In this document: piece by piece, positions 9,995 to 54,887 of the stretch
Numbering within the stretch: position 1 is the stretch's first letter
Layout: every line of letters begins with the position of its first letter
Source: a virus
Taxonomy: Duplodnaviria > Caudoviricetes
DNA length: 64,000 nt
Virus record (IMG/VR): IMGVR_UViG_3300037067_027684
Coordinates: 32,001 to 96,000 of that record
Reading direction: 5' to 3' (one strand)
Program-made: the position numbers and the translations under genes
The notes under the pieces: generated by a model
Database searches by the model: none
What the model was told of the DNA's origin: nothing
The model's input: the letters and a program-made list of their open reading frames with translations, nothing else

Positions 9995-11575
9995 ATGCGG
10001 TGTTTGGAACACCTAATCGAACAAATAATCAAAAAACCAGAGAAATTGGTTGTATCTGATTCTTGTAGGGTTTTGATTAAGTGTAAGAATTGTGATAAAA
10101 TCAATAATGTTGGAACAAGGAATCTTAAACGAAAGTGGGGAGATGGACCATATCTTTGTAAATCATGTCACATTAAGACTTATATTGATAATCCAGAAAG
10201 ATTGAAGAAATTTCAGAAATCATTAGGAGAGGCTTTACAAAAACCTGAAGTTAGAAAGAAACTATCTAATAATGGTAAATTAGCATGGTCCAACCCAGAG
10301 ACATCAAAAAGAATTAAAGAAGCAATCTCAGAAGGTCATCGTAGTAATCCTAAAATGATTGCCGCTCGTGATAGGGCACACAAAGCTTGGATGCAGAAAT
10401 ATGGAATAGATAAGATGTTGGCGATGGCTGATCTAGGACATGAAGCAATCAAACAAAAATGTGTGCAGAGCCAAGATTTCAGGAATTTATTAGGTAAGAA
10501 CTTTCATATTGACGACCCAATGGTTATGGAGAAAGTTAGGAAATCTCCAGCATTTCTTACTAAGGAAAAATGGCAAGATCCAGATTTTCGTAAGAGAATG
10601 GCCAACATTATAACTAACCAACCAAGAGTAAGTGGCATACAACGTAAATTATATGAAATTTTAGACGATTTGGGGGTTAATTATCAAAAAGACACCCAAA
10701 TTGGTTTTTATTCTGTTGATTGTGTAATTCCCAAACAAAAAGAGATGGCTAAATCAATTATAATAGAAGTACAGGGTGATTATTGGCATAATATCCCAGC
10801 AACTATTCAAAAAGATAAGACTAAATCAGAATATCTGATGAAATATTATTCTGAATATGATCTTAAATATCTCTGGGAACATGAATTTAGAAACGAAAGT
10901 AGAATTAGAGAATTATTGAAATATTGGATTAACGGTGAGTCAGAGTTAATTGCTTTTGATGTTAACAATGTGGTTGAGCGAGTGGTTAACAGACATTTGG
11001 CTGAGGAGTTTGTCGGAAAATATCACTATGCTGGTCGTCTGGGCACTAGCCAATTAATGCTTGGCTATTATCTTAAAGAAGAACTAATATCAGTTATAGT
11101 TTATGGTTATCCAGTAAGACAAGAGACAGCAACACGGTTAGGTGTTGAACCACATCAAGTTCTTGAATTAAATAGGTTGGCTATCTCGCCTAAATATCAA
11201 ATCAAAAATTTAGCGAGTTATGTGATTGGTAAGTCAATTAGACATTTAAAACATAATCGTAAAGACATAATTATATTAGTATCGTTTTCTGACACAACAC
11301 ATAATCACATAGGCACCATTTATAAAGCTAGTAATTGGAAGTTTGATGGAACGATTGACGCAGATTATTGGTATAAAGATCAAGATGGATTTGTTTATCA
11401 TAAGAAAACTGTGTGGAACAAAGCTAAAGCAAATAATTTGACAGAAGTACAATACTCTGAGAAGACGAATTTGATCAAAATTTGGGGTAAACCAAAACAT
11501 AGATTTGTCTATGTCTTAGACAAATTAAAAGTCAAAATTACAAATGTACTGGGAGACACAAGATGCCTACCATAG
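9995..11575 (+). CDS. Fusion of NUMOD-like repeats, Vsr/DUF559-like endonuclease and Mom-like GNAT domain
   Basis: YSVDC..IEVQGDYWH..KD..YLWEHE nuclease motif; KYHY..ELNRLAI..VSFSD..HIGTIYKASNW Mom-like motif. Confidence 0.7.
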   Translation: MRCLEHLIEQIIKKPEKLVVSDSCRVLIKCKNCDKINNVGTRNLKRKWGDGPYLCKSCHIKTYIDNPERLKKFQKSLGEALQKPEVRKKLSNNGKLAWSNPETSKRIKEAISEGHRSNPKMIAARDRAHKAWMQKYGIDKMLAMADLGHEAIKQKCVQSQDFRNLLGKNFHIDDPMVMEKVRKSPAFLTKEKWQDPDFRKRMANIITNQPRVSGIQRKLYEILDDLGVNYQKDTQIGFYSVDCVIPKQKEMAKSIIIEVQGDYWHNIPATIQKDKTKSEYLMKYYSEYDLKYLWEHEFRNESRIRELLKYWINGESELIAFDVNNVVERVVNRHLAEEFVGKYHYAGRLGTSQLMLGYYLKEELISVIVYGYPVRQETATRLGVEPHQVLELNRLAISPKYQIKNLASYVIGKSIRHLKHNRKDIIILVSFSDTTHNHIGTIYKASNWKFDGTIDADYWYKDQDGFVYHKKTVWNKAKANNLTEVQYSEKTNLIKIWGKPKHRFVYVLDKLKVKITNVLGDTRCLP

Positions 11576-13326
11576 ATCCTGCTCTAATTCCTAGTGTCAG
11601 CGCTGGGAATCTCTTTAGAACTTTTACTGAAGACACAACTCTCAACATACGCTGGATATCCCCCACCGAGCCGGTACTCTATGAGGTCGCAAATCGCCCA
11701 TCAGTTGATGTTGTAGTTCGCCAATTGATTTTGGCCAAAGCTGTTGATGCTATGGATTTGCGTCTGAGCCATCAATCACTATTCCCATTCCTTATTCCCT
11801 GCAAAGTCCAGGTCGCCACCCACGAGATTGAGACTCCTCCATCTTGGATTTGGGACATGCACGTCTCCCTCCCATCCAAATGGGAATCATTGAGACTTGC
11901 TAAGATCAAGAGGATTAGTGGCACAAATCCATCTACTGGCAGCACTGGGTCTACTTTCACTGGTACTTTACGATTGATTTTTACCGCCCAACAGCAGAAT
12001 TCCACAATTGAAGTTGCGATGTTCTTCGTTGATTATAAGATTGACAGTCTCTTTACTTATCAAATTTTACGCTTACAGCCTTGCACGTCAACTGAAGAAG
12101 CCAACCCAATTGATCCAAGCGAAGCGGCTACGATTAATGGTTTCGTGACCTTTAGGACTCTAGACCCAGTGACCGATACGGTCGCTGAAGATTTCCTGAC
12201 TGAATTGGCTCCTCCTTCTGCTCCGACTGACAGTAATAGTGATGGTATCTTTGATAATCCTGCTGTTTATGAAATTGTGAGTACTCCTGCTGGTGGTGCC
12301 ACTGCTAGTGATGATTTTATTTCTACTAGTTTGTCACACGGTACTGGTATTACTGTTAACAGTGCTTGGAATGCTATTCCTCCGCAGGATTCTGATGTCA
12401 ATACTTTCCTGCGTTCTATGAATTATCCATTCCGTGTTGGTGCTACTAGGGGTTCGGCTCAGGGTATTACTATTCCACAAGCTCTATTCCGTGAATTCCA
12501 AATGATTGCTCCTACTCCTGACGAGGCTACTGGTGACGTGTCGTTGCAGAATTCCCCTGTGTGGGTTAGTTCTATTGAGCGTTTGGATACTCTGGCTGCT
12601 CAGTTGAAGTTTACTTTCTCGACTTATACGATTGTTGATGAGACTATTAACCCTGTTCAGGTTGAGTTTACTACTCTTACTTTAGATAGGACAATGGCTG
12701 CTGGTCAAATTGTTAATTTCACACCGATTTCGAATTTACTTCGCGCTTCGGGTGCTGATGCTGCGATGTTTATGCAGGGGTTTGGTACTGGTCACGTTGT
12801 TCTGAGTAGTTTGTGGGGTACTACTGGTGAAGAGGTCAACGATTTCTTTGATGCTTTCTTGAGTATTGTTGCTACCCCTGCTGTGACTACTTTCTCTAAG
12901 GATGCGTCAATTATTTCTTCATTTGGTCTGAGTCGCAACTCTCGCTATCTGCCAACGCGTGGTCAGGCTCAGGCTCTACGTGGCACTACTGAGCGTTTGG
13001 CTGTTCCTATTAATCCGACTGATAATAATAGGTTCGTTGTCGAGCAGGATCAGGGTGTTGGTAATATTGTTGACTTCAGGACGTTGCCTGGTTTCCCTGA
13101 TGCTTTGAGGGAAAATGCTGATATTGAGCCTGTTGCTTATTCTGGTGCTTTGTGTCATAGAGTTGTGAAATTGGTCATTGATTCCAGTGGTACTGCCCAT
13201 GATTATGATAGAGATATTCTGCCAAGGTTACGTTGTTTGTTTGGTAGGGACCCGATATTTGGGGATCAATTCTGGGATGGTACGGTGATGAAGTTCTATT
13301 CGGGTGACGCTTGGATTCAGTTCTAA
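11563..13326 (+). CDS. Putative virion structural protein
   Basis: 587 aa, Thr/Ser/Pro-rich; C-terminal GDQFWDGT..YSGDAW motif. Confidence 0.55.
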   Translation: MPTIDPALIPSVSAGNLFRTFTEDTTLNIRWISPTEPVLYEVANRPSVDVVVRQLILAKAVDAMDLRLSHQSLFPFLIPCKVQVATHEIETPPSWIWDMHVSLPSKWESLRLAKIKRISGTNPSTGSTGSTFTGTLRLIFTAQQQNSTIEVAMFFVDYKIDSLFTYQILRLQPCTSTEEANPIDPSEAATINGFVTFRTLDPVTDTVAEDFLTELAPPSAPTDSNSDGIFDNPAVYEIVSTPAGGATASDDFISTSLSHGTGITVNSAWNAIPPQDSDVNTFLRSMNYPFRVGATRGSAQGITIPQALFREFQMIAPTPDEATGDVSLQNSPVWVSSIERLDTLAAQLKFTFSTYTIVDETINPVQVEFTTLTLDRTMAAGQIVNFTPISNLLRASGADAAMFMQGFGTGHVVLSSLWGTTGEEVNDFFDAFLSIVATPAVTTFSKDASIISSFGLSRNSRYLPTRGQAQALRGTTERLAVPINPTDNNRFVVEQDQGVGNIVDFRTLPGFPDALRENADIEPVAYSGALCHRVVKLVIDSSGTAHDYDRDILPRLRCLFGRDPIFGDQFWDGTVMKFYSGDAWIQF

Positions 13327-14497: not shown

Positions 14498-14539
14498 ATT
14501 TATTTCCCGCCTCTGAATGATATTCCTTATTCAGAGGCG
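14498..14539 (+). promoter_or_regulatory. cas3 5'-UTR hairpin sequestering the SD, with adjacent anti-repeat-like motif
   Basis: CGCCTCTGAAT (14508-18)/ATTCAGAGGCG (14529-39); GAGG lies 7 nt before ATG 14545. Confidence 0.7.
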
Positions 14540-14544
14540 ACATT

Positions 14545-17184
14545 ATGGATATTCGAAAATTTTGGGGAAAAGCTGATAATTCGTTATTTTGGCATCCAGC
14601 GTTATACCATATGATTGATAGTGGTATGGTTGCTAAAGTGTTGTTGAATACTTTGCCAATTAAAATGACCAAAGTACTTACTGATGTTTACACAATAGAT
14701 CAGTTGGCCTATTTTGTTTCTTTGCATGATATTGGTAAGATCACGCCAGGGTTTAATTTTAAGATTTTAGAAGGACGATCAGCCAAATCTTTTGGTTTTT
14801 TGGCGAATCTAGCCGCAGATGAAGGACAATGTGACGCTTCAGATTGTTTACTCTCAAAGGAGTGCTGTTTCTGTAAGAATACAAATAGAAAATATTCTGG
14901 AATGAGTAAAGAAAGTAAGTGGCATAATTTTGGTACCGCTAAAATTTTAAGGGATTTTGGGCAAATAAGAAAAATATTGGGAGCGCATCATGGAACCTTT
15001 TTGACTAATATTAATGATTGCAATATAGGATGTGATAGTTGGTTAATGGCGCAGAAACAGGCTATTAAAGATTTACAGGAAATTTTCATTAAAGACCAAA
15101 CTCCAGTTATCAAGACATTTCAGAATGATTTTATTATGATCTTTGCTGCTTTCGTGGCTATTGCGGATTGGATTAGTTCTAATCAAGATTATTTTAAATG
15201 TGTCAATACTGGAAAGGTCCAGACACACACAATTGAGGAATATGCCATAATATCAGAGAAAATTGCTTCAACAGCAATTGATTCTCTTAATTGGAATTTT
15301 CAACCACATGCTAAAAAGCACGATTTCATAAATTTATTCGGAGTAAAGCCCTATTCTTGGCAAAAGAAGCTTATTACTAAACTCAACAGCCAAAAGAAAC
15401 CATTTCTATTGTTAATAGAAGCACCAACTGGTTGTGGTAAAAGCGAAGCTGCAATGAGCGCTGCTGATATCGCAGAAGCTAAGTTTGGGTATCATGGAAC
15501 GTTTTTTGCTCTTCCCACGCAGGCAGCATCCAATCAGATGTATGGGCGATTTGGACTATTCTTAAAGAATAGACCTTACGGCAACAATTATAAGCCCGAT
15601 TTCCATTTACGTCACCATTTGTCCTTTATGGATCAAGAATATAGAGAAATTAAAAGAAAGACAGTAGAGGGCATATCTAGTGATGTTCTTGCGACTGAAT
15701 GGTTTACAAGATCCAAACAAGGATTGCTGTCGCCATATGCGGTCGGGACCATAGATCAAGCTATTATGGCCGGATTAATGATCAAGCATAACTTTGTAAG
15801 AATGTTTGGTCTACTCAATAAGGTTGTGGTTTTTGATGAAGTTCACTCCTATGATGTGTATTCGAGTAATATATTATATCGAATAATAGAATGGTTAAGT
15901 TATCTTGGTACTTCTGTTGTTGTTCTTTCTGCGACTCTACCGAGACAAAAAAGGAATGAATTAATTAGTTCTTATTGTGGGAAACCAATTAAGACTAGGG
16001 TTAAATATCCTCTATTTGCAGTTGCCAACGAAGATAAAGTTACTTTTAGTCACATTGATTGTCAGAGATATAGATCAATTCGTTATAAGTTTATTGATGA
16101 AAAAGATCTAATTAAGAGGGTTCAAGTACAATTAAGCAGGAATGTAAACGTAGCAGTGGTTCGAAATATTATTGGTGAGGCCCAAGATACTTTTAGATCA
16201 CTGCGAGATTCTTCTGTTGATTGCTCATTGTTTCATGCACGTTTTCCAGCTTATAGACGACGAGAAATTGAAGAGCTTGTTGTTAGGAAATACTCCAAAG
16301 ATAGTAAAAATAGACCCAATAAGTCATTGTTAGTTGCTACTGATGTGATTGGTCAGAGCGTGGATCTGGATTTTGACGTTATGTTCACGGATATAGCTCC
16401 AATCGATATTATGTTGCAGAGGTTGGGTAGGTTATGGCGGCATGATCGTAAGCGTTCGATTAGAGTTCCTACCTTATATGTCATTAGGAAGAGTAGAGAC
16501 TACGAATTTGGAAAAAGTGAAATCATTTATAGTAAATTTATTTTAGACAACACGATGAAAGTTCTTCTCGATAGGTTCAAGACTGGCCAAAACACAATCA
16601 ATAAAATCGATGACGTTGAATTACTGATAAATGGAGTGTACGATGGTAAAATTGCCTCATTAGAAGATGACCCAGAATATCAGAAATCATATGGAAAATA
16701 TCTAAATCGAATACTTGGAAGTAAAATTTTGGCGGGTGAATTTAGGATACCAAGATGTAAAATTGATAGTAATGATTTTATGGCGAGTTTTGGTGACTTT
16801 TTTGATGTTGAAGAGGGTGAATTAACTTTCCCAACTACGAGACTTAAATTGCCGTCAATTCCTATAATTTGTGTTGATTGGAAGGACGGTTCTGAGATTT
16901 CTGTTGACGGTCAAGTTATTAATATAAGTAAAGAACCAGAGTTTGAAGAAATTAAATTACTACTTACAAGATCTGTTAATATTATGATTCAGCCTTGGTT
17001 TAAGTACTTTAGTGATCAGGCTAAAATCAACGGATGGGAAGATACTATTCTTGATCGTTATAGAATTGCAGTATTCGACCAAGAGAGATATGATAACGGT
17101 GAACGATATAAGTTCTTAGTTAACGAGGATGGCGCGATGTTGAGTTTGAATAATATTTTTGGATTGGAATCGAGAAATGTATAA
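14545..17184 (+). CDS. cas3: Type I-E Cas3 HD nuclease-helicase
   Basis: WGK..HMID, LHDIGK, HHG, ADWISS; EAPTGCGKSE Walker A; FDEVH, LSAT, FHARF, QRLGRLWRH. Confidence 0.97.
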   Translation: MDIRKFWGKADNSLFWHPALYHMIDSGMVAKVLLNTLPIKMTKVLTDVYTIDQLAYFVSLHDIGKITPGFNFKILEGRSAKSFGFLANLAADEGQCDASDCLLSKECCFCKNTNRKYSGMSKESKWHNFGTAKILRDFGQIRKILGAHHGTFLTNINDCNIGCDSWLMAQKQAIKDLQEIFIKDQTPVIKTFQNDFIMIFAAFVAIADWISSNQDYFKCVNTGKVQTHTIEEYAIISEKIASTAIDSLNWNFQPHAKKHDFINLFGVKPYSWQKKLITKLNSQKKPFLLLIEAPTGCGKSEAAMSAADIAEAKFGYHGTFFALPTQAASNQMYGRFGLFLKNRPYGNNYKPDFHLRHHLSFMDQEYREIKRKTVEGISSDVLATEWFTRSKQGLLSPYAVGTIDQAIMAGLMIKHNFVRMFGLLNKVVVFDEVHSYDVYSSNILYRIIEWLSYLGTSVVVLSATLPRQKRNELISSYCGKPIKTRVKYPLFAVANEDKVTFSHIDCQRYRSIRYKFIDEKDLIKRVQVQLSRNVNVAVVRNIIGEAQDTFRSLRDSSVDCSLFHARFPAYRRREIEELVVRKYSKDSKNRPNKSLLVATDVIGQSVDLDFDVMFTDIAPIDIMLQRLGRLWRHDRKRSIRVPTLYVIRKSRDYEFGKSEIIYSKFILDNTMKVLLDRFKTGQNTINKIDDVELLINGVYDGKIASLEDDPEYQKSYGKYLNRILGSKILAGEFRIPRCKIDSNDFMASFGDFFDVEEGELTFPTTRLKLPSIPIICVDWKDGSEISVDGQVINISKEPEFEEIKLLLTRSVNIMIQPWFKYFSDQAKINGWEDTILDRYRIAVFDQERYDNGERYKFLVNEDGAMLSLNNIFGLESRNV

Positions 17185-18595
17185 TCTTTTAGAAGAAAAA
17201 TGGATTACGGTGCAGACCCAAAGGGGAGTGAATAAGGTTTCTTTAGTAGAGTTGATTGAGGATGCACATGAGATTTTAGACGTAATTGACAATCCTATAG
17301 TACGAGTTTCAATTTTGAGAGTTGCTTTGTCTATATTATATGAACAGTATCAAATTAGAACTAGTAAGCAGTGGATTAGTCTTTGGAATAAGAGTCGATT
17401 CGACCGAACTCTTTTAGATAAAAAGAAATTTGAATTGTTTGATGATAAAAAGCCATTTTATCAATCGGTTGGTGTTGTTGAACAGAAGAATGCATTTACT
17501 ATCCAGCCCCATTTGGGTGGTAATAATGTTATTTTCTTCAATGATCCACAGAAATTGCGAAGTTTGACTTATGAGGAATCAGCAAAATGGTTGATAACCC
17601 ATCAAATGTGGGCCGTTTGTATGCCGAGCAAAGGCAAATATCTGAAGAATAGTATTTTAACCGGGGGTGTTGTCTTGATTCTTGAAGGTAGTAATTTATT
17701 TGAAACTCTAATGTTGAATATGCTATGTGGTGACCATGTTGGAAACCCAATATGGAGCAGAAAAGAAAATAGTGGATTACTTGACTTGTTGACTTGGCGT
17801 TCTAGAAGCATGAGATTGATATCTGATAATGGAGTTGTTCGAAAAATTGACTATGCTGATGGTGACGAGATTCCTGAGGGTATAGATGATTCGATGCTTG
17901 TTTATGTGATGCGGAAAGGTGAAAAACAAAAATTAACTCTTAATCATGAAAAACAGCTGTGGCGAAATTGTGAGGCTCTTTTTGCAGCAGAAAATAAAGA
18001 TTGTTCGTTGGCACTGAAGCAATTTATAAATTTGTTAAACATGGATTCTGTTCTGGAAGTTACAAATGAAAGATTTAAAACTTTGGAGAAGAGATTCTCG
18101 ATTACAGCAATGATAATCACAAATACCGCGAAAGTACAACACTATGTCTACCAAACATTTCCTATTCCAGAGATGTTCTTTGATCCATCAAAGAGTGAAA
18201 GTAAGAGGGGTGAAATAGGGGCTATGTTACGGAAGGCCAATGAGCTATCTAGGATAATCCGTTTTAATTTCTTGAAGCAAATGAATATTAAAGCGAAGCG
18301 TGGTAAAAGAATTGTGATTGATGGTTACTTAATGGAATATTGGAATATGTTGGAGGTTCCCTTTATGAATTATCTTTCAGACAAACTCAATATGGAACAA
18401 TTTATTGAATTATGCTTTAGGACTACTAATAAGGTTGTTAATAAGATCGTGTCTGATTATTGGAGTGAAGATGCTTTTAAGTTCGTCAAGCTTTGTGGTT
18501 TTGGTATCAGTGCCTTGAAAGAAGGAGAAAAGGTCGATGGAACAAAATCAAGAAATGATATTTCTAAACAGGCTGAAGAGTTTAAAGAAGGATAG
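17177..18595 (+). CDS. cas8e: Cascade large subunit Cas8e (Cse1/CasA)
   Basis: MYNLLEEKWI, FELFD..PFYQ, GSNLFETL.LN, LTWRSR motifs; follows cas3. Confidence 0.9.
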   Translation: MYNLLEEKWITVQTQRGVNKVSLVELIEDAHEILDVIDNPIVRVSILRVALSILYEQYQIRTSKQWISLWNKSRFDRTLLDKKKFELFDDKKPFYQSVGVVEQKNAFTIQPHLGGNNVIFFNDPQKLRSLTYEESAKWLITHQMWAVCMPSKGKYLKNSILTGGVVLILEGSNLFETLMLNMLCGDHVGNPIWSRKENSGLLDLLTWRSRSMRLISDNGVVRKIDYADGDEIPEGIDDSMLVYVMRKGEKQKLTLNHEKQLWRNCEALFAAENKDCSLALKQFINLLNMDSVLEVTNERFKTLEKRFSITAMIITNTAKVQHYVYQTFPIPEMFFDPSKSESKRGEIGAMLRKANELSRIIRFNFLKQMNIKAKRGKRIVIDGYLMEYWNMLEVPFMNYLSDKLNMEQFIELCFRTTNKVVNKIVSDYWSEDAFKFVKLCGFGISALKEGEKVDGTKSRNDISKQAEEFKEG

Positions 18596-18965
18596 GGGTG
18601 CTTTGGCCAAGTTACGTAGAAGCGGCATTGACAGTATCTCAATATTGGCCGATGTACTTCCACGGGATTGGAAGCAAAAATGGTTTTTATTGGTGGCCGA
18701 GTGTTGGGCCGACAATACTAGAGATGGTGGTAGACTTGCTCTTGTTTGTAGAAATTTGAAAATCAACGAAAATAGGTTTAAGGTTTTGGTTTTTAGTGAT
18801 AGAGAGGAATTACCTCAGAGATTGAAGTCGATATTACGAATAATCACACAAAAGGGTTCTGGAGTTAATTGGTCTTGTTTGCTGAATGATCTGATCTATT
18901 GGGGTGAGAGCATTCAGAGAGAGTGGGCGATGGATTTTTGGACAGGAGAAAAGTCACATGAGTAA
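18537..18965 (+). CDS. cas11: Cascade small subunit Cas11 (Cse2/CasB)
   Basis: GALAKLRR..ENRF..VNWSCLLNDLIYW..WAMDFW. Confidence 0.9.
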   Translation: MEQNQEMIFLNRLKSLKKDRGALAKLRRSGIDSISILADVLPRDWKQKWFLLVAECWADNTRDGGRLALVCRNLKINENRFKVLVFSDREELPQRLKSILRIITQKGSGVNWSCLLNDLIYWGESIQREWAMDFWTGEKSHE

Positions 18966-20091
18966 ATTCATTAATATCCACATCATTCACAATTATCCGG
19001 TATCATGTCTTAATCGTGATGATGCTAATACACCAAAAGATTGCGAGATTGGTGGTTATACACGTGCTCGGATCTCTAGCCAATGTCTGAAGAGAGCCGT
19101 TCGATTTCATCTTGGTGGTGAGTTTTCACTTGGGACACGATCACGCCAATTCCCACAACTTCTAATTAATAAACTTATTGCCTCTGGTAAAAACCAAGAT
19201 GCTACCAATAAGCTTGTTGGTCGTGCTTTTGATGCTTTTTCGAGCATGATTAAAGATAAGAGTGATGAAGAGGAAAACACTGTCGAAGAAAACACAGAGG
19301 AACAGAAGTCTGTTTTGTTACATGTCCCTCCGCTCTACGATCAGAAGCTTGATGAAATTTCTAAATTTATATGTGATAACTGGGATAGTCTCAAAGCAGT
19401 TGTCGTAGAATCTAAAGGCAAGAAGACAAAGAAATGGAATCCTAAAAAAGATACCCCTGATTATGAATTAAAGAAGCATATGGAGAAGTTTGTTGGAAAC
19501 CCACAAGACGCTGTTGATATTGCTTTGTTTGGAAGAATGCTTGCCAGCAACACTGATTTTACAGTTGATGGGGTGTGTTCAGTCGCGCACGCATTCTCTA
19601 CAAACAAAATCAAGAAAGATACTGATTTCTTTACTGCGGTTGACGATCTAAGTCATGATTCTGGCGCTGGTATGATGGGGAATATTGATTTCAATAGTGC
19701 TTGTTATTATCAATTTGCTACTGTTGATTATACTAGGTTATCTGAGTTAATGGGGAATGATTCAAAGAAAATTGCTTTGGCCTGCGTTAATGCTTTTGCT
19801 AAGGCAAATCCTTCTGGTAAACAGAATACGATGTGTGCATTAACCCCACCTGATTTTATTTTGGTTGCTATTGGTAATCAGCGTTTGTCATACGCCAATG
19901 CTTTTGTTAAACCTATTCGTCCCGATGAGAAAGATCTTATTACTAACTCAATTGAAGCGTTGATTAAAGAATCTGACTCATTAAAGACGTTCTTTAATCC
20001 GGTTATTTGTTCTTGGTGTCGCTCGATGCAGATAGCCAATTCTGTTTCTGATTATGGTGCTTTCATGACTCAGGTTGGAGAACAATTGTAA
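18958..20091 (+). CDS. cas7: Cascade backbone Cas7 (CasC)
   Basis: CLNRDD..RARISSQCLKRA, DIALFGRM, DFFTAVDD, PSGKQN. Confidence 0.96.
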   Translation: MSKFINIHIIHNYPVSCLNRDDANTPKDCEIGGYTRARISSQCLKRAVRFHLGGEFSLGTRSRQFPQLLINKLIASGKNQDATNKLVGRAFDAFSSMIKDKSDEEENTVEENTEEQKSVLLHVPPLYDQKLDEISKFICDNWDSLKAVVVESKGKKTKKWNPKKDTPDYELKKHMEKFVGNPQDAVDIALFGRMLASNTDFTVDGVCSVAHAFSTNKIKKDTDFFTAVDDLSHDSGAGMMGNIDFNSACYYQFATVDYTRLSELMGNDSKKIALACVNAFAKANPSGKQNTMCALTPPDFILVAIGNQRLSYANAFVKPIRPDEKDLITNSIEALIKESDSLKTFFNPVICSWCRSMQIANSVSDYGAFMTQVGEQL

Positions 20092-20750
20092 TGGCCACTA
20101 TTCTATTGAGAATTAAAGCGCCATTTCAATCTTGGGGTTACCAAGAGAGCACTCATATTAGAGATACCAATAGATATCCTACCAAAAGTGGAATAATTGG
20201 TTTGTGTTGTGCGGCGATTGGGAAACCAAGAGAAGAAACTCCTGATTTCCCAACTTTAGTTGAGTTTGGTGTTCTGAAGATGGGCGTTAGAGTTCTTAAT
20301 TTTGGCTCTAAGATGAGAGATTTTTGTACGGTCGGTAGTGGTATCAACAAGCCTACCTTGGATACTGTGTTTGATAGTAAATGTACTACCAAAAGAAAAG
20401 AGGCTATTATCATAACTAAATATTATTTGGTTGGGGCCGATTTTTTGGTTGCGTTGGAAGGTGATAATGTTTTGTTAGGGCGCATTAAAGCTGGTTTTTT
20501 GAATCCTGTTTTCCCACTCTTTTTTGGTCGTAAAAATTGTCCTCCTGCTTGTGATATTTTAGTGGGTGTTTACGAATCTGGCTTGGTTGAAACGCTGAGA
20601 GATGCAGTTGTTGATGTTGATAAACCAGAAAATCTTTTTATTTTAGAGAGTAACACTGGAGTTTTGGTTAATGATGTCCCATTGATTTCTCGTGAATTTG
20701 GTGTTCGTAGAGTTGTGGAATGTTCTTTGGAGGAATTATCATGTTCCTAA
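20091..20750 (+). CDS. cas5: Cas5e (CasD)
   Basis: APFQSWG..R.T..PTKSGIIGL, YL..ADF, LFFGRK.CPP. Confidence 0.95.
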   Translation: MATILLRIKAPFQSWGYQESTHIRDTNRYPTKSGIIGLCCAAIGKPREETPDFPTLVEFGVLKMGVRVLNFGSKMRDFCTVGSGINKPTLDTVFDSKCTTKRKEAIIITKYYLVGADFLVALEGDNVLLGRIKAGFLNPVFPLFFGRKNCPPACDILVGVYESGLVETLRDAVVDVDKPENLFILESNTGVLVNDVPLISREFGVRRVVECSLEELSCS

Positions 20751-21304
20751 CTCAGATTCAGGTTAATAATTCTCGTATTCTTGGTGATATTTATGGGGTC
20801 CATCAGAAGGTGATGGCATTTGTGGACTCTGAGGAGAGGGTTCTTTATCGAGTTGAGACCGATGACTTTCCTCGAATCCTTGTTCTTTCTGAGGACGAAC
20901 CTAGTAATAAAGTTGATTGGGGTAAGGTAATTATTAAACCATATAATCCTATTATTGCTGTTGGTAGACGATTTAGGTTTAGGTTGTTGGCTAACCCTAC
21001 GCATGTGGTTTCAGTTGGTGGTCATAAGAGGATTAGGATGTTTTTGAAGATCGAGGATCAAGAGAATTGGATTAAAGAAAAGGGCAAGAAATCTGGTTTT
21101 AAGGTTCTAGATCATGTTTTGGTGATAGATAATGGATTTTGTAAGATCAAGAAGCAGTCTGGTTTTGAATGGATCACTAGATCAGTTCTGTTTGAGGGTG
21201 TATTGGAGGTTTCTGATAAGAATTTGTTTTTGTTTAATTTGTTTAATGGGATCGGTCGTTGTAAGGCTTTTGGTTTTGGTTTACTGTCGATTGCTGCTCT
21301 TTGA
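20741..21304 (+). CDS. cas6e: Cas6e (CasE) crRNA endoribonuclease
   Basis: VLYRVE, FRFRLLANPT, FEGVLEV, GIGRCKAFGFGLLS Gly-rich loop. Confidence 0.95.
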   Translation: MFLTQIQVNNSRILGDIYGVHQKVMAFVDSEERVLYRVETDDFPRILVLSEDEPSNKVDWGKVIIKPYNPIIAVGRRFRFRLLANPTHVVSVGGHKRIRMFLKIEDQENWIKEKGKKSGFKVLDHVLVIDNGFCKIKKQSGFEWITRSVLFEGVLEVSDKNLFLFNLFNGIGRCKAFGFGLLSIAAL

Positions 21305-21377
21305 TAATCGAATACTGATTAAACGCTTTAACACCACTGATTGTGTTTCTTATTGCTGCGACATACAATCAGTTGGT
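21305..21377 (+). promoter_or_regulatory. Short CRISPR leader containing an inverted repeat
   Basis: 73-bp AT-rich segment between cas6e and repeat 1; ACACCACTGATTGTGT/ATACAATCAGTTGGTGT. Confidence 0.7.
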
Positions 21378-21997
21378 GTCTTTCCCGCGTAAGCGGGGAT
21401 AAATCGACGATGTTAGATGATGGGCGGAATTTTAGGTCGTCTTTCCCGCGTAAGCGGGGATAAATCGGCGGAACAGATTGACTATGCCGCACCAAAAATG
21501 TCTTTCCCGCGTAAGCGGGGATAAATCGCAATCGCAGTCGGAACTACCTTCTGCACAGACGTCTTTCCCGCGTAAGCGGGGATAAATCGATGGACAAGAA
21601 GATTGACCAGTATCACGACTCGTCTTTCCCGCGTAAGCGGGGATAAATCGTATCCGGCTATTCGTTGTTCGATTTGTCGTGAGTCTTTCCCGCGTAAGCG
21701 GGGATAAATCGGCTCAGGTCTGGAAGGCTCGATTTAGGCATCCGTCTTTCCCGCGTAAGCGGGGATAAATCGCACCCTCTCGCCTAGCGGGGTGTTGGAT
21801 CGTTGTCTTTCCCGCGTAAGCGGGGATAAATCGCCCTGTAGGTCACAGAAGAGATCCGCACCGGCTCCCGCGTAAGCGGGGATAAATCGATGATGGAATC
21901 AGATCAAGTGAAAAGCTTGATTCCCGCGTAAGCGGGGATAAATCGGAGAGACCGGATAGGGCTTATACTTCGGTGGAGTCTCCCGCGTAAGTGGGGA
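21378..21997 (+). CRISPR. Type I-E array: 11 repeats (GTCTTTCCCGCGTAAGCGGGGATAAATCG, 29 nt), 10 spacers of 32 nt
   Basis: Identical repeats at 21378, 21439, 21500, 21561, 21622, 21683, 21744, 21805; 24-nt repeats at 21866 and 21922; degenerate terminal repeat at 21978; resembles the E. coli I-E repeat. Confidence 0.98.
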
Positions 21998-22026
21998 AGT
22001 ATTTGATTCTTTCAAGGAGAACAATA

Positions 22027-23184
22027 ATGTCGAGTATTCCATTAGCCACACGTATCCGACCGAAAACTCTCGCTGAGATAATTGGACAACAGCATATTTT
22101 AGGAGAAGATAAACCATTATTTAAAATGATTAAGGATGATAGAGTAAGTTCGATAATTTTCTACGGCCCAAGTGGTACTGGTAAGACAACACTAGCAGAA
22201 GTAATCTCAAAAATTACAAAACGCAATTTTGTTAAAATGAATGCCGCTAACTGTGGTGTTAAAGAAATTAGATCATTGGCTGAAAAAGCAACAATGACTG
22301 GAATCAGTACAGTATTGTTCCTAGACGAATGTCATAGAGCTACGACTGTATTGATGGACACGCTACTGCCGTTTATTGAGAATGGAGTGTTTGTATTCAT
22401 TGGCGCAACCACTGAGAATGTCTACCATTCATTGACATCAGCATTACTATCAAGATGTCAAGTGTATGTTCTGGAATCATTGTCTGAGACTGAATTAACC
22501 ATGATTATGTTAAGAGGTGTCGAATATTATCGATCAATTAAAAAAGAGGTTAGTCTTGATCCTGAAGCTGTTAAACACATAATTCGTGTTTCTTGTGGCG
22601 ATGGTCGTAAGGTTCTGACTATTCTTGAAATGTTGGTTGAAATTGGTGGTGCATTAGACATTACTCTTGAATTGGCTAGAGCAGTTGCTCCGTCGAAATA
22701 TGTTGTGTATGGAGAAAGTTTGAAGTATGATTACGCTTCTTGGGAGCAGGGGGCGCTTCAAGCTTCAGACCCCGACGCTGCGATTTATGCTCTAGCTAAA
22801 TGGCTTGAATCGGGGGAGGACCCGAGATATATAGCGAGAAGAATAATTATTTCTGCGAGCGAGGACTGTGCTAGTTCTCCATTTGCAGCGATGCTTGCGC
22901 ATTCAGCCTATGTTGCCGCCTGCGAAATAGGAAGACCAGAATGCGATATAGTTCTAGCTCACGCAGTCGTAACTATTGCTACTAGTAAACGTGATAAGTC
23001 AGCGGCAGTAGCGATTTGGTCTGCTCTTAAGGATATCAAAGAAGGTATTGACGTAGCTGTCCCGAAGGAATTGCGAGATTGCCATTATAAAGGCTCTGAG
23101 AAACTTGGCCATGGTGCTTATCACGATGGTATGAATCAATCAGCATATGTAGGTATTAACAAGAAATATTATAAGCCATGGTAA
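22027..23184 (+). CDS. rarA: Replication-associated recombination protein A (RarA/MgsA AAA+ ATPase)
   Basis: PLATRIRPKTL..IGQQH, GPSGTGKTT, LDECHR, GATTEN, SDPDAA..GEDPRYIARR..ASED; AAGGAG SD. Confidence 0.92.
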   Translation: MSSIPLATRIRPKTLAEIIGQQHILGEDKPLFKMIKDDRVSSIIFYGPSGTGKTTLAEVISKITKRNFVKMNAANCGVKEIRSLAEKATMTGISTVLFLDECHRATTVLMDTLLPFIENGVFVFIGATTENVYHSLTSALLSRCQVYVLESLSETELTMIMLRGVEYYRSIKKEVSLDPEAVKHIIRVSCGDGRKVLTILEMLVEIGGALDITLELARAVAPSKYVVYGESLKYDYASWEQGALQASDPDAAIYALAKWLESGEDPRYIARRIIISASEDCASSPFAAMLAHSAYVAACEIGRPECDIVLAHAVVTIATSKRDKSAAVAIWSALKDIKEGIDVAVPKELRDCHYKGSEKLGHGAYHDGMNQSAYVGINKKYYKPW

Positions 23185-36680: not shown

Positions 36681-37832
36681 ATGAAAGTTAACAAGGCAAT
36701 TAAATTCAAAATCCACCCAACAATCAAACAACAAAAACTACTAACCAAACACTTCGGCTGCTGCAGATGGGTCTACAACCACTTCCTCCAATATAAAACA
36801 GACCAATACAAGAAAACCAAAAAATCCGCCTCATGGCTAGAAATGAATAGAAAATTAACAGAACTAAAGAAACAACCAGACAAACTATGGCTAAATGATG
36901 TTAGTAGAGTGGCTCTAAATGGAGCATTAGATAATTTAGATGTAGCTTTTAATAATTTCTTCAGAAAAACAGCAAAATACCCCAAATTCAAGAATAAACA
37001 CTCAAAACAATCATATAAATTGACCAATCAACACTTCCGTCTAAAAACAAGAGGTGTTCAAATAGCCAAAATCGGTTTCCTAAAAGGTGATGTAGAATTG
37101 CCAGAAGAGCATAAACTATTATCAATAACCATTACTAAGACATTTACTGATAAATATTATGCTTCTATTTCCTATGAAACAGAAATCCCTAATCCTAAAG
37201 TAGATCAAACAAAACCAGTAATAGGAATAGATTTTGGTCTAAAGACTTTTATTACTACTTCTGAGGGAGAGAAAATAGAACATCCTCTTCCATTTAAAAA
37301 ATCCATGAGAAAATTAAGAAGAACACAAAGAAAATTAAGTAGAAGAATTAAGGGAAGTCATAGAAGGGAGGCACAAAAAAGAAGAGTGTCTCTGATTCAA
37401 GAGAAAATCAGAAACCAGAGACAGAACTTTCTACATGAAGTATCCTCTAGGTTGGTGAGTGAGAACCAAGCCATTTATCTAGAGGATTTGAGCCTTAAAG
37501 GGATGCAAAGTAGATGGGGTAGAAAAATTAATGACTTGGGGTGGAATATTTTTACGAAACAATTGGAATATAAGGGTCCATGGAGGGGTTGTTTGGTGGA
37601 AAAGAGGGATAGGTTCTTCCCTTCTTCTAAGATGTGTTCAGTTTGTGGTTATATTAATCAAAATTTAACTTTAGACCAGAGGGAGTGGGATTGTTGTAAT
37701 TGTTCTACCCATCATGATAGGGATATTAATGCTGCTAGGAACATCCTTAACTACGGGCCGGTTGCCCGAAAGCAACGGACAGGGAGAGTTGGGGTGGTAA
37801 ACTCGCTCGTTGAACTGTCAAGGCAAGAGTAA
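36681..37832 (+). CDS. tnpB: IS200/IS605-family RNA-guided nuclease TnpB (no tnpA nearby)
   Basis: N-terminal HTH (KFKIHPT..FGCCRWVYN), RuvC-I IGIDFGLK, RuvC-II LEDL, Zn finger CSVC..CCNC, RuvC-III DRDINAARNI. Confidence 0.93.
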   Translation: MKVNKAIKFKIHPTIKQQKLLTKHFGCCRWVYNHFLQYKTDQYKKTKKSASWLEMNRKLTELKKQPDKLWLNDVSRVALNGALDNLDVAFNNFFRKTAKYPKFKNKHSKQSYKLTNQHFRLKTRGVQIAKIGFLKGDVELPEEHKLLSITITKTFTDKYYASISYETEIPNPKVDQTKPVIGIDFGLKTFITTSEGEKIEHPLPFKKSMRKLRRTQRKLSRRIKGSHRREAQKRRVSLIQEKIRNQRQNFLHEVSSRLVSENQAIYLEDLSLKGMQSRWGRKINDLGWNIFTKQLEYKGPWRGCLVEKRDRFFPSSKMCSVCGYINQNLTLDQREWDCCNCSTHHDRDINAARNILNYGPVARKQRTGRVGVVNSLVELSRQE

Positions 37833-40832: not shown

Positions 40833-41187
40833 TAAAGATTCAGTTCCAATAACAATCGTTCAAGCTGTAGATTGCCTGGTTGCTAGTCTTACTGAGGATG
40901 AAGTACAAAGTATCAAAAGTGACTTGAATTATTCGGAATGTCATCATAGTGCTGGAAGATTTATTAGAAACAATTGGTCATTGTGGGAGAAGGACACGCC
41001 GATGGTTAAAGATGCTATTAAGACTTATGGTATTGCTCATGCTGATGATATTTCTGGTTTAATTTTCGAATGGGCTTTCGCTAAGGTTAGGGGTGTTGAT
41101 TTTGATCCGTCTCTTCTAGTTGAGAAATATCGTGAGCATTGGAAGGAATTTGGCACAACACCGTTAGGTGCCGCTGGTGTCGAATAA
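40822..41187 (+). CDS. DUF6794-like hypothetical protein
   Basis: HH..G..IRNNWSLW..HADDISG.I. Confidence 0.55.
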   Translation: MKIDKDSVPITIVQAVDCLVASLTEDEVQSIKSDLNYSECHHSAGRFIRNNWSLWEKDTPMVKDAIKTYGIAHADDISGLIFEWAFAKVRGVDFDPSLLVEKYREHWKEFGTTPLGAAGVE

Positions 41188-41195
41188 ATAACATT

Positions 41196-41975
41196 GTGAA
41201 ATTATTCATCCATAATAGCTTCAAATATGGTGATGTTCTCCTAACCAGAGTCATGATTGATGCTCTTAGGGCTAAATATCCAGGCGTTCAGATGATTTTA
41301 GAATGCGAAGCACCAAGGAAATATCTATGGCAGGATTACGGTTATCCAATAGTTACTACAACTCCTAATTATATTGACATCAAGCCTACTCCATCATGTC
41401 CTAAGGATTATCTCTTCTTTAATATGTGGTTTGGCGTTTTTAATGATATTCTTTGTACTTATGGATTATCTCATATTAATCATGTGCATACTTTTAATCG
41501 TCAGATGATGTATTATAAGTTGAATTCTTTTCTTGATTTACCGACTGGACCGCCTGTCTTGAAATTGCGTGATCTTGGTTTGAATGTTCCTCCGAACACC
41601 GTCCTTGTTGAGAATGGTCCCTGTAGTTCTGGGCAATGTAATAATAGTATTAACACTATTTTATCTCAATTAATCAAGAATTTCCCTAATCTGAATTTTC
41701 TTCTGTCATATGATATTGGTCTTAAGGACCAAAATGTTGTTAGTGGTTGGGGGCATAATTTATTACAATTGTCTGATTTAAGCAATAAATGTATTGGTTT
41801 TATTACTCAAGCTAGTGGTGTTAATGCTGCTTCTTATACTGCTGCGAATATTGGTAAGCCTAGGGTGTTTTTTGGTTGGAATTATATTTATAAAATTTGG
41901 GATAATTCTGCCGATGTTGCATATAATTATGATCAATTGAAACTTTGGATAGAGGGTAAGATATGCAAAAGATAA
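41196..41975 (+). CDS. Putative GT-B-like protein, paralog of 54114-54887
   Basis: Shared GDV.LTRV.ID, WFG.F.DIL.TYGL, VENGP..SGQC, FITQASGVNA. Confidence 0.6.
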   Translation: MKLFIHNSFKYGDVLLTRVMIDALRAKYPGVQMILECEAPRKYLWQDYGYPIVTTTPNYIDIKPTPSCPKDYLFFNMWFGVFNDILCTYGLSHINHVHTFNRQMMYYKLNSFLDLPTGPPVLKLRDLGLNVPPNTVLVENGPCSSGQCNNSINTILSQLIKNFPNLNFLLSYDIGLKDQNVVSGWGHNLLQLSDLSNKCIGFITQASGVNAASYTAANIGKPRVFFGWNYIYKIWDNSADVAYNYDQLKLWIEGKICKR

Positions 41976-50761: not shown

Positions 50762-52876
50762 TTAGAGAATTATCCAATTGGTGCCATCTGACTGAACCAA
50801 AATGTTTTCATAATCATTTATGATTTGCGAAGTATTCCCATCTATAGTTTGCCCTCCTGTGGTGGTTATTGTGACCGTGTTGATCGTAGCATTCAATTTC
50901 TTCACATTGAATGTTTTGCCTGATGTTGCAGCTGATGGTAATGTTATTGTTACTGAATTTATTGTTGCATCGACAGCAATTGTCCAATCTGATAATTGGG
51001 CAGTATAATCCGATGTTTTGGTTATGATGGGTTTAACTTCTGCGGTTGTGTCACCATAGAGACCACGTAATGTTAGGACATAACCTGTGGTTGCTGTGTA
51101 TGCATCCAGCATTGGTTTGCTGACATAGGAGACGTTGGCGGTATTTGGGTCCGTAGCTGTCAGTAAGCCTGCTGTAGCGGCACTTAGGTAATAGGTTACA
51201 CCTGCGGTTAGTCCAGCGAGGCCAGAAATATATCCTTCAAGGACTACTCGGAATCCTGCTCCGGAAGCAGTTTCGATAATTCCGACTGCTTCGGCATTAG
51301 TTGGTGTGTCAGCTTGTGCTTTAACCCAAGTTCCTGTCACATCTATGCGTACTACATCTCCTGTTGCAAAGGCGTTGGCTTGTGTGATGTCTTGGTAAAC
51401 TGTTGAGCCAGGTCCTGTTGGTCCAGTTTGCACTGGTCCGGTTGGTCCGGTTGTTATTGAAGCTGCGCCAGTTGGACCAGTTGTTATTGAAATTGGGCCG
51501 GTTGGTCCGGTTACTATAGACGCAGGACCAGTTACTCCTGTCGGTCCAGTTGTTATTGAAGTAGCTCCTGTGGGACCAGTTTGAATAGGGCCGGTAGGAC
51601 CAGTTGTTATAGAAGTAGAACCAGTTGGCCCAGTCGTGATTGAAGCTGATCCTGTTGGTCCGGTTTGAATAGGGCCAGTAGGACCAGTTTGTATTGGGCG
51701 GGTTGGACCAGTTTGTATAGGACCAGTTGGTCCAGTTGTTATAGAAGTAGAACCAGTTGGCCCAGTTGTTATAGAAGCTGATCCTGTCGGACCAGTTGTT
51801 ATAGAAGTAGAACCAGTTGGTCCAGTTTGGATAGGACCAGTTGGGCCTGTGATAATTGAAGCCGATCCTGTCGGACCAGTCGTGATTGAAGCTGATCCGG
51901 TTGGTCCAGTTTGGATAGGACCAGTAGGGCCAGTGGTTATTGAAATGGATCCGGTTGGGCCAGTTATTAATGAGTTAGCACCAGTTGGACCAGTTAAAGA
52001 TGTCCCAGTTGGACCTGTTTGTATTGGGCCTGTGGGGCCTGTTGTTATCGAATTGGCACCAGTTGGACCAGTTATCGTAGAATCAGCTCCAGTTGGGCCA
52101 GTAATTATAGAATCAGCTCCAGTAGGACCGGTCCCTCCTCCATCTGCCCCAGTTGGTCCAGTTATTGTGGCTCCAGTAGGACCAGTTTCTCCAAGACCAG
52201 TTGGACCAGTTATGGTAGAATCAGCTCCGGTTGGACCTGTTCCTCCACCATCTGCCCCAGTTGGACCAGTTATGGTAGAATCAGCTCCGGTTGGGCCTGT
52301 TCCCCCTCCAGCGACTCCAGTGGGACCAGTTATAGTAGAATCAGCTCCGGTTGGGCCAGTTTCTCCAAGACCAGTGGGGCCAGTAGTTGAACCTGACCCT
52401 GTAGGACCAGTTATTATAGAATCGGCTCCGGTTGGTCCTGTTCCCCCACCATCTGCTCCTGTTGGACCAGTTATTTGAGAATCAGCTCCGGTTGGACCGG
52501 TTGTCGAACCAGATCCAGTAGGGCCAGTTATCTGGGAATCAGCTCCGGTCGGACCGGTACCTCCACCGTCTGCTCCTGTTGGGCCAGTTATCTGGGAATC
52601 AGCTCCGGTCGGTCCAGTTGCTCCACCACCTGCTCCTGTTGGGCCAGTTCCAAATGCCCCAGTTGGACCAGTTATTGTAGAGGCTGCTCCTGTAGGACCA
52701 AAATCAGCGTTAAGTGGTTGCCAATTAGATAATGGCCCGAAGGGTGCGACTACCGACCAATAATATTGGATTCCGTTGGCTCTAACTGTATAATAATCAC
52801 CAAAAGCATTGCCAACTAGTGGCAAGTCCGTTCGATTCTGAACACAACCTCGATAAACCAGAGCAGCTTTTGCCAT
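50762..52876 (-). CDS. GPT-repeat (collagen/BclA-like) fibre protein with C-terminal virion domains
   Basis: Dozens of TGPTG units; C-terminal [11 protein letters not shown] and TITLP..TIDG..SDGTNW domains. Confidence 0.8.
51410..52700 (-). repeat. Degenerate tandem repeats encoding TGPTG units
   Basis: Recurrent ggaccagttgg/gggccagttg on + strand with variable spacers. Confidence 0.9.
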
Positions 52877-54113: not shown

Positions 54114-54887
54114 ATGAAGATTTTTATTAATAATAGTCTGCACTGTGGAGATGTAATTCTTACTAGGGTACTTATAGATGCTTTTCGTAAGAAATTTCCG
54201 AATGCTGAATTATTATTACAATGTCGTGCTCCTGTGCATTATTTGTGGGCAGATTATGGCGTCAAGATTTTCGATACTATGGTTGATTACAGCCTGACAA
54301 CTCCTACTCCGCAATGCCCAAAGGATTTTGAATTCTTTCAGGCTTGGTTTGGTACTTTTCCGGATATTCTTAATACCTATGGTTTAACTCATGCTAATCA
54401 GATCCATACTGTTAATCGACAGATGCAGATGCATGGAACCAATCATTATTTGGATTTACCGACTGAGCCTCCTGTGATTGAGTTGCGTGATCTTCATACA
54501 TTGTGTTCTCCGAATACTATTTTGGTTGAGAATGGTCCTCCTGGTTCAGGGCAGTGTAATGGTGGTTTGGGTCAGTATGTTCGTCGGTTGGCTACTGAAT
54601 TTCCACGATTTAATTTCCTTTGTTCTGCTAATCCGCAGGTTAAATTACCCAACGTGTTTGATGGTTCGGCATATAATCTTTTGGTTATGTCTGATTTATG
54701 TAATAAGTGTGTAGCTTTTATCACTCAGGCTAGTGGCGTGAATGCTTGTACCTATACGAGGTGCAATATTGGTAAGCCGCGTATTTTCTTTGGTTATATT
54801 CGTGGGTGGACTATTTGGGATAATTCGGCGGTTGTTGTGCATACTTATGAACGTTTGGCGGCTGTATTGAGGGAGAAATTATTCTAA
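54114..54887 (+). CDS. Putative GT-B-like protein, paralog of 41196-41975
   Basis: Co-linear shared motifs with the 41196 gene. Confidence 0.6.
   Translation: MKIFINNSLHCGDVILTRVLIDAFRKKFPNAELLLQCRAPVHYLWADYGVKIFDTMVDYSLTTPTPQCPKDFEFFQAWFGTFPDILNTYGLTHANQIHTVNRQMQMHGTNHYLDLPTEPPVIELRDLHTLCSPNTILVENGPPGSGQCNGGLGQYVRRLATEFPRFNFLCSANPQVKLPNVFDGSAYNLLVMSDLCNKCVAFITQASGVNACTYTRCNIGKPRIFFGYIRGWTIWDNSAVVVHTYERLAAVLREKLF

What the first reader, a model, noticed from the sequence alone, without database searches (positions are those of the whole stretch)
14545..21997. Phage-borne type I-E interference system with intact Cas3 and no adjacent adaptation genes
Seen: six overlapping cas genes with intact HD and helicase motifs; the array starts 73 bp after cas6e where cas1-cas2 normally lie; the flanks are phage-type genes; eight identical repeats suggest recent activity. 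Known: phage CRISPR systems often lack cas1/cas2 and can use host adaptation. Inference: a DNA-degrading weapon against competing elements or host loci.
Basis: partly seen in the sequence, partly recalled or inferred. Interest (0 to 1): 0.7.

Follow-up and report, generated by a model that had tools for sequence, protein, structure and literature searches.

The report
Jumbo-phage interference-only type I-E CRISPR
An uncultured giant bacterial virus carries its own intact DNA-cutting CRISPR system (type I-E with Cas3) and ten guide sequences, but no spacer-capture genes next to it; this is a new example of a pattern already published for giant phages, and its targets could not be found.

Summary
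Observation confirmed. Six overlapping genes (cas3, cas8e, cas11, cas7, cas5, cas6e) have intact catalytic motifs; a 73-nt leader and a 10-spacer array follow directly. The carrier is a jumbo phage: the cassette sits between two genes that are syntenic in related 234-395 kb phages, none of which has type I-E Cas7. The proteins form a small, isolated branch (three lineages, 52-82% identical, dN/dS about 0.06-0.13); in the two lineages with DNA in hand the array follows cas6e with no cas1-cas2. Two limits. The 247-kb record holds no cas1, cas2 or cas4, but it is cut from a 372-kb contig and lacks the terminase, so about a third of the genome was not searched. No spacer target or host was found, so 'weapon against competitors or host' remains inference. 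'Recent activity' is not supported here: an independent assembly has the same ten spacers; only a sister lineage shows turnover. Most likely an interference-only Cascade-Cas3 module loaded by host Cas1-Cas2 and used against co-infecting elements. Phage CRISPR without cas1/cas2 is published (PMC7162821), and this scan reported a similar phage I-E locus on other DNA (e1-5342105). New member of a known kind.

The parts
14545..17184 (+). cas3, HD nuclease fused to SF2 helicase, 879 aa
   Evidence: Pfam/NCBIfam; H17, H22, H61-D62, K65, H148-H149, D208, Walker A K299, DEVH 431-434, SAT 462-464, motif VI 625-629 conserved in 7 homologues; model matches type I-E Cas3 structures 4Q2C and 4QQW, TM 0.61-0.65
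17177..18595 (+). cas8e (cse1), large subunit, 472 aa
   Evidence: PF09481 E 3e-52; best solved match T. thermophilus-type CasA 4F3E E 6e-15; shorter than relatives (median 521 aa)
18537..18965 (+). cas11 (cse2), small subunit, 142 aa
   Evidence: TIGR02548 over cut-off, PF09485
18958..20091 (+). cas7 (cse4), backbone, 377 aa
   Evidence: TIGR01869 268 bits, PF09344 E 2e-91
20091..20750 (+). cas5e, 219 aa
   Evidence: TIGR01868 110 bits
20741..21304 (+). cas6e (cse3), crRNA-processing nuclease, 187 aa
   Evidence: TIGR01907 92 bits; Y18, H21 and the C-terminal glycine loop invariant; shorter than relatives (median 249 aa)
21305..21377 (+). 73-nt leader containing a long inverted repeat; no close IHF consensus
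   Evidence: length; fold z -3.78; best IHF matches have 2 mismatches; promoter-like sites not above background
21378..21865 (+). CRISPR units 1-8: eight identical 29-nt repeats, each followed by a 32-nt spacer
21866..21977 (+). CRISPR units 9-10: two 24-nt repeats lacking the first 5 nt, each followed by a 32-nt spacer
   Evidence: identical in an independent assembly; shortened repeat still folds
21978..22004 (+). degenerate terminal repeat (fixes orientation: leader on the left)
14506..14538 (.). perfect inverted repeat covering the cas3 ribosome-binding region; possible regulatory element, not shown to belong to the system
   Evidence: fold z -2.95; no comparable stable hairpin before the sister-lineage cas3 (z -0.6)
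11563..13326 (+). left landmark: 587-aa protein conserved in related jumbo phages (not part of the cassette)
   Evidence: 43-58% identical homologues in 8 virus records of 68-395 kb
22027..23184 (+). right landmark: rarA/mgsA AAA+ ATPase (not part of the cassette)
   Evidence: PF12002; 47-58% identical homologues in 6 virus records

Best explanation
An accessory, interference-only type I-E CRISPR-Cas cassette of a probably lytic jumbo phage of about 370 kb. During infection the six genes and the array are expressed, probably as one unit (inferred). Cas6e cuts each repeat at the base of its hairpin to give crRNAs with an 8-nt handle and a 32-nt guide; Cascade (Cas8e, Cas11, Cas7, Cas5, Cas6e) finds matching DNA next to a PAM that ends in G, most likely AAG, and recruits Cas3, which nicks and degrades it (established I-E mechanism; parts and catalytic residues shown here, activity not shown). 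New spacers are added rarely and in trans, by a host Cas1-Cas2 (inferred). The most likely targets are co-infecting phages or other mobile elements in the same host (inferred from published surveys; no target found here).
For: All interference parts intact and under purifying selection against a sister lineage, dN/dS about 0.06-0.13 with near-saturated dS. Phage context: flanking genes syntenic with phage G001; a neighbouring conserved protein falls in Uroviricota clusters; relatives have terminases and terminal repeats at 320-395 kb; no tyrosine integrase in any. Accessory: 8.7 kb between the two landmark genes here against 0.9 kb in G001; 0 of 11 related records have Cas7e. No cas1, cas2 or cas4 in the record and no cas1 in the 11 relatives; the 52% lineage also has the array directly after cas6e, and no cas1 is called after cas6e in the 75% lineage, whereas a cellular I-E locus has cas1-cas2 there. 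All 10 units end in G and the repeat keeps the two E. coli-type ruler anchors at the right distance (PMC5039180); repeat-end rules predict an AAG PAM (PMC8482600). Two copies of the 52% lineage, 99.94% identical in the cas genes, share 3 spacers and differ in 13. Published: most jumbo-phage spacer matches are to other jumbo phages (57% of 9,304; PMC13037316); in-trans loading is shown for plasmid type IV-A (PMC11656645).
Against: No protospacer in IMG/VR (exact search, 8 of 10 spacers), INPHARED, PLSDB, 11 related phages or the record itself. No GTDB genome carries this repeat; the nearest differ at 3 positions, so no compatible host integrase is identified. About 125 kb of the source contig was not searched. 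The array is static between two assemblies. The sister lineages are on contigs of at most 8.1 kb and are not shown to be viral.
Confidence: 0.55

Rival explanations
1. Same interference module, but aimed at the host: it cuts or silences host chromosome loci or a host anti-phage island, as the ICP1 type I-F system does against PLE.
For: Spacers average 50% GC (two at 62%) against 42% for the phage; no match among viral collections; chromosome-targeting phage spacers are published (PMC7162821).
Against: No cellular match either, though GTDB could not be scanned for spacers; related phages span 38-60% GC, so GC does not discriminate; in surveys phage targets predominate.
Confidence: 0.15
2. The system is complete and self-sufficient: cas1-cas2 lie in the 125 kb that the virus record omits, so no host adaptation is needed.
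For: The same proteins are on a 371,794-bp contig; the record lacks the terminase that three relatives have; the repeat matches no sequenced host exactly; the published huge-phage I-E example has Cas1 and Cas2 (PMC7162821 Table S1).
Against: I-E cas1-cas2 normally follow cas6e and are missing there in all three lineages; none of 11 relatives, four of them complete, has cas1.
Confidence: 0.12
3. A frozen cassette: captured long ago with its spacers, no longer updated in this phage, kept only for residual protection or decaying slowly.
For: Identical spacer set in an independent assembly and the same first spacer in a third run; no current target found; degenerate trailer; relatives do without it.
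Against: No stop or frameshift in 6.8 kb; strong purifying selection; eight perfect repeats; spacer turnover in the sister lineage; the compared assemblies may come from one site.
Confidence: 0.13
4. The locus is cellular (host flank of a provirus or a mis-assembly), not viral.
For: IMG/VR classes the record as 'provirus'; rarA and sugar-modifying genes lie nearby.
Against: The locus is 46-54 kb inside the viral record, between genes syntenic with other jumbo phages; the same junctions occur in three other assemblies; cas codon-position-3 GC (0.28-0.41) matches the flanks (0.26-0.40); no integrase.
Confidence: 0.03

Closest known systems
Canonical type I-E CRISPR-Cas (E. coli K-12, Thermobifida fusca, Thermobaculum terrenum Cas3 4Q2C)
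   Same: Gene set and order cas3-cas8e-cas11-cas7-cas5-cas6e, HD-helicase Cas3 fold, 29-nt hairpin repeat, 32-nt spacers, 61-nt period, ruler anchors.
   Different: No cas1-cas2 after cas6e; on a phage; shorter Cas8e and Cas6e; long isolated branch, 30-42% identity to cellular homologues; no IHF consensus in a 73-nt leader.
Huge-phage CRISPR systems lacking acquisition genes (Al-Shayeb et al. 2020, PMC7162821)
   Same: Genome over 200 kb, short array, no Cas1/Cas2/Cas4, intact nuclease.
   Different: The I-E entry I could read in their Table S1 (F21_PHAGE_55_22: cas5, cas6, cas7, cas8, cse2, cas3) has Cas1 and Cas2; the Cas1-less type I entry I read has no cse2. I read only part of the table, and the 2022 Cell survey is not held.
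Vibrio phage ICP1 type I-F CRISPR-Cas (Seed et al. 2013, as reviewed in PMC11656645)
   Same: Phage-encoded Cascade plus Cas3 in a variable locus that only some relatives carry.
   Different: ICP1 is I-F, has its own Cas1 and Cas2-3 and a known target (PLE); here I-E, no adaptation genes seen, target unknown.
Plasmid type IV-A3 systems that use host I-E Cas1-Cas2 in trans (PMC11656645; bioRxiv 2023.06.23.546257)
   Same: Mobile-element CRISPR without adaptation genes, with an I-E-type repeat.
   Different: IV-A3 has DinG and represses without cutting; this locus has a full Cas3 nuclease. In-trans loading is shown there, only inferred here.

Membership tests
Type I-E CRISPR-Cas | Cas3 with N-terminal HD nuclease fused to SF2 helicase | tested here: met
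Type I-E CRISPR-Cas | Signature Cas8e (Cse1) and separate Cas11 (Cse2) | tested here: met
   PF09481 E 3e-52, PF09485 E 7e-14; TIGR02547 just under cut-off
Type I-E CRISPR-Cas | Cas7e, Cas5e, Cas6e with catalytic His and glycine loop | tested here: met
Type I-E CRISPR-Cas | 29-nt palindromic repeat, 32-nt spacers, leader and degenerate trailer | tested here: met
Type I-E CRISPR-Cas | cas1-cas2 adaptation module after cas6e (complete canonical locus) | tested here: not met
   absent at the locus and in the 247-kb record; so filed as an interference-only I-E locus, not as a complete adaptive system
Type I-E CRISPR-Cas | PAM-dependent, Cas3-dependent DNA interference | not testable with these tools
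   needs an interference assay; no protospacer found
Huge-phage CRISPR-Cas lacking acquisition genes | Located in a phage genome over 200 kb | tested here: met
   246,684-bp virus record; synteny with terminase-bearing, terminally repeated phages; capsid and terminase not seen in this record
Huge-phage CRISPR-Cas lacking acquisition genes | No cas1/cas2/cas4 anywhere in the genome | tested here: inconclusive
   none in 247 kb; about 125 kb of the 371,794-bp contig unavailable
Huge-phage CRISPR-Cas lacking acquisition genes | Repeat shared with a host array | tested here: inconclusive
   no exact match in 185,579 GTDB genomes; nearest differ at 3 of 29 positions; host may be unsequenced
Huge-phage CRISPR-Cas lacking acquisition genes | Spacers match competing phages or the host | tested here: inconclusive
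   no match found; spacers 5 and 7 not scanned in IMG/VR; exact matches only
CRISPR-associated transposon (type I-E CAST) | Loss of Cas3 and linkage to tnsABC/tniQ | tested here: not met
   Cas3 intact; no such genes flank the cassette; the only TnsA-like hit is a lone endonuclease 8 kb upstream

The most novel reading that the evidence does not exclude
A long-lived, virus-adapted branch of type I-E: a compacted Cascade-Cas3 cassette that lost cas1-cas2 before its three lineages split, moves between jumbo phages, and is reloaded by whatever host Cas1-Cas2 it meets. The two older repeats that lack the same first 5 nt would be a record of two integration events by a poorly matched integrase that nicked 5 nt inside the first repeat, and the different last-PAM base of the lineages (G in 10 of 10 here, T in 10 of 16 in the sister) would reflect different hosts.
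Probability: 0.25. Interest if true: 0.6.

Novelty: new member of a known kind. Interest (0 to 1): 0.36.

Why it matters
As reviewed in 2024 (PMC11656645), ICP1 was the only phage whose CRISPR anti-defence activity had been tested. An intact 7.5-kb I-E cassette with Cas3 and no adaptation genes is a ready test of two open points: whether phage-borne Cascade-Cas3 cuts competitors inside an infected cell, and whether a phage array is loaded by host Cas1-Cas2. Its short Cas8e and Cas6e and its distance from all cellular homologues may also be of use as a compact Cascade-Cas3 tool. A CRISPR specialist would not be surprised by the layout itself: absence of cas1/cas2 is the rule in huge phages.

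Tried and rejected
Sister-lineage spacers also match none of four phage genomes held. Host by repeat: no exact match in IMG/VR or GTDB; four Gammaproteobacteria with a repeat differing at 3 positions were rejected as host evidence. Related I-E loci in IMG/VR: none found by the Cas7 pattern search. The 2022 Cell survey of virus-encoded CRISPR is not held. A recoded genome was rejected for this locus: all six genes are open under table 11. A CRISPR-derived regulatory repeat before cas3 stays unproven: only an 8-nt exact match to the repeat, one of 87 in the record, and no such element in the sister lineage. Locus L040 was first taken as an outgroup; the tree shows it is distant, so it serves only as an example of the canonical order. 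The Cas7 tree is the quick version; the careful search did not finish.
Full report
What is in the sequence. Between 14545 and 21304 lie six open, overlapping genes on the + strand. Profile searches name them cas3, cas8e, cas11, cas7, cas5 and cas6e of subtype I-E. Cas3 (879 aa) has the HD-domain residues H17, H22, H61, D62, K65, H148, H149 and D208 and the helicase motifs (Walker A K299, DEVH 431-434, SAT, motif VI), all invariant in an alignment of seven homologues; that these are the metal ligands rests on my knowledge of T. fusca Cas3. A model (pLDDT 66.5, pTM 0.69) matches the I-E Cas3 structures 4Q2C and 4QQW best, TM 0.61-0.65. Cas6e keeps its catalytic Tyr/His pair and glycine loop. The array starts 73 nt after the cas6e stop and has eight identical 29-nt repeats, two repeats lacking the first 5 nt, a degenerate last repeat ending at 22004, and ten unique 32-nt spacers. 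The repeat hairpin is far more stable than shuffles.

What carries it. The window lies at 32001-96000 of a 246,684-bp IMG/VR record classed as 'provirus', 91% complete. Most of its genes are unknown; the known ones are typical of large phages (tail proteins, NAD ligase, helicases, dUTPase, homing endonucleases). The gene left of the cassette (587 aa) and rarA on the right have homologues in 11 virus records up to 395 kb, four with direct terminal repeats. The closest, G001, shares 58 proteins at 47% mean identity in largely the same order, and a conserved neighbouring protein falls in Uroviricota clusters. No tyrosine integrase was found here or in four relatives. So the carrier is a jumbo tailed phage, probably lytic. 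The record is incomplete: the same Cas proteins are on record on a 371,794-bp contig, and the terminase that G001, G003 and G011 share has no match in the record. About 125 kb of probably viral DNA could not be examined.

Are cas1 and cas2 missing? None of four adaptation profiles, nor Cas4, matches the record, while the controls ring. None of the 11 relatives has Cas1 or Cas7e. Between the two landmark genes this phage has 8.7 kb, G001 0.9 kb with one epimerase gene, G003 5 kb of other genes: the cassette is accessory cargo at a variable site. The claim is solid for the locus, probable but unproven for the genome.

Relatives of the cassette. Searches with Cas7, Cas3, Cas6e and Cas8e give two close lineages (about 75% and 52-58% identical) and then a drop to 30-42%. 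In a Cas7 tree the three lineages form one long branch (1.49 changes per site, SH-aLRT 100; quick tree). Both sisters have the same six genes in the same order. In the 52% lineage the array starts 41 nt after cas6e; in the 75% lineage no cas1 is called in the 750 nt after cas6e, but its DNA could not be fetched. A cellular locus shows the usual cas1-cas2 at this place. Against the 75% lineage dN/dS is about 0.06-0.13 in five genes, with dS close to saturation, so the proteins are being kept. Cas8e (472 aa against a median of 521) and Cas6e (187 against 249) are short; Cas3 and Cas7 are near normal. The sister contigs are at most 8.1 kb, so they are not shown to be viral.

Is the array active? 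An independent assembly, 99.76% identical over 13 kb, has the same ten spacers with one substitution, and a third run has the same first spacer. Identical repeats therefore do not show recent acquisition in this phage. In the 52% lineage two samples with 99.94% identical cas genes share three middle spacers and differ in the other 13, including the leader end, which fits continuing turnover without adjacent cas1-cas2, although one of the two arrays has irregular units. Here all ten units end in G. In I-E that base comes from the PAM (PMC8482600), so acquisition was PAM-selective; the repeat-end rules of that paper predict AAG. The repeat keeps both inverted-repeat anchors with the second ending 8 nt before the insertion point, as required by E. 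coli Cas1-Cas2 (PMC5039180). That makes loading by a host I-E integrase possible, not proven. The two repeats that lack the same 5 nt are what an integration 5 nt inside the first repeat would leave behind; a deletion copied by slippage is the alternative (inference).

Targets and host. No protospacer was found in the record, in INPHARED, PLSDB, IMG/VR (exact, eight of ten spacers) or the related phages. No GTDB genome has the repeat. The function 'weapon against competitors or host' thus rests on the anatomy and on surveys: phage spacers hit other phages and sometimes the host chromosome (PMC7162821), and 57% of jumbo-phage spacers in one catalogue matched other jumbo phages (PMC13037316).

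Mechanism. Shown: an intact, selected I-E interference gene set and array on a jumbo phage, without adaptation genes at the locus. Established for the subtype: Cas6e processing, Cascade assembly, PAM-dependent binding, Cas3 degradation. Inferred: expression during infection, loading in trans, competitor targets. I give this reading 0.55; host targeting 0.15; a frozen cassette 0.13; cas1-cas2 elsewhere in the unseen third 0.12; cellular origin 0.03.

Comparison and verdict. Almost all huge-phage CRISPR systems lack Cas1, Cas2 and Cas4 (PMC7162821). A huge-phage I-E system with Cas3 is listed in that paper's Table S1, with Cas1 and Cas2 present. I found no paper describing this lineage or testing a phage I-E system without adaptation genes, but the largest survey is not held. 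This scan has already reported phage I-E loci with Cas3 and no cas1 on other genomes (unchecked notes). The finding is real and clean, and is a new member of a known kind. Interest 0.36.

Noticed in passing
whole record G000 (246,684 bp): The record is a trimmed part of a 371,794-bp contig and lacks the terminase found in three relatives; the 'provirus' label and '91% complete' are probably wrong, which affects any absence claim made on this genome.
   Followed up: yes
window 21866-21945: Two consecutive repeats lack the same first 5 nt, giving 56-nt units; could record integration shifted 5 nt into the first repeat and would give shorter crRNAs.
   Followed up: partly
window 14498-14545: Perfect inverted repeat over the cas3 ribosome-binding region with an 8-nt match to the CRISPR repeat at its foot; hairpin significant (z -2.95), repeat likeness not clearly above chance, not conserved in the sister lineage.
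   Followed up: partly
window 21333-21377: The leader's last 45 nt form a long inverted repeat (z -3.78) ending at the first repeat; no IHF consensus. Possible protein-binding dyad or RNA hairpin.
   Followed up: partly
L011:12186-13445 minus strand (genome 240186-241445): Protein matching the 2-aminoadenine pathway synthetase family phrog_1211 (E 1e-33), with Ser where PurA has its catalytic Asp (motif reading from my own knowledge): possible PurZ-like gene, i.e. modified phage DNA.
   Followed up: no
window 9995-11575: Endonuclease-like domain fused to a Mom-family DNA-modification domain (PF25680 E 7e-36), 3 kb upstream of cas3; also present in several relatives.
   Followed up: no
window 36681-37832: 383-aa TnpB-like protein (phrog_506 E 3e-115), no array beside it.
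   Followed up: no
window 50762-52876: 704-aa collagen-like protein built of about 30 Gly-Pro-Thr-rich 30-nt repeats.
   Followed up: no
window 41139-41975 and 54114-54887: Two paralogous genes 12,918 nt apart, still about 77% alike in several DNA blocks.
   Followed up: no
L015:5300-5910 and L017:7419-8115: Sister-lineage arrays use a different repeat and mostly T, not G, as the PAM-derived base (10 of 16 distinct units); L015 has 45-, 64- and 24-nt irregular spacers.
   Followed up: partly
genome 301-374 (L001): The only tRNA called has a CUA (amber) anticodon; already treated in earlier notes of this scan.
   Followed up: no
MT835722.1:8864-9748: An unannotated 20.7-kb 'Bacteriophage sp.' record from human faeces encodes a distant I-E Cas7 (30% identity).
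   Followed up: no
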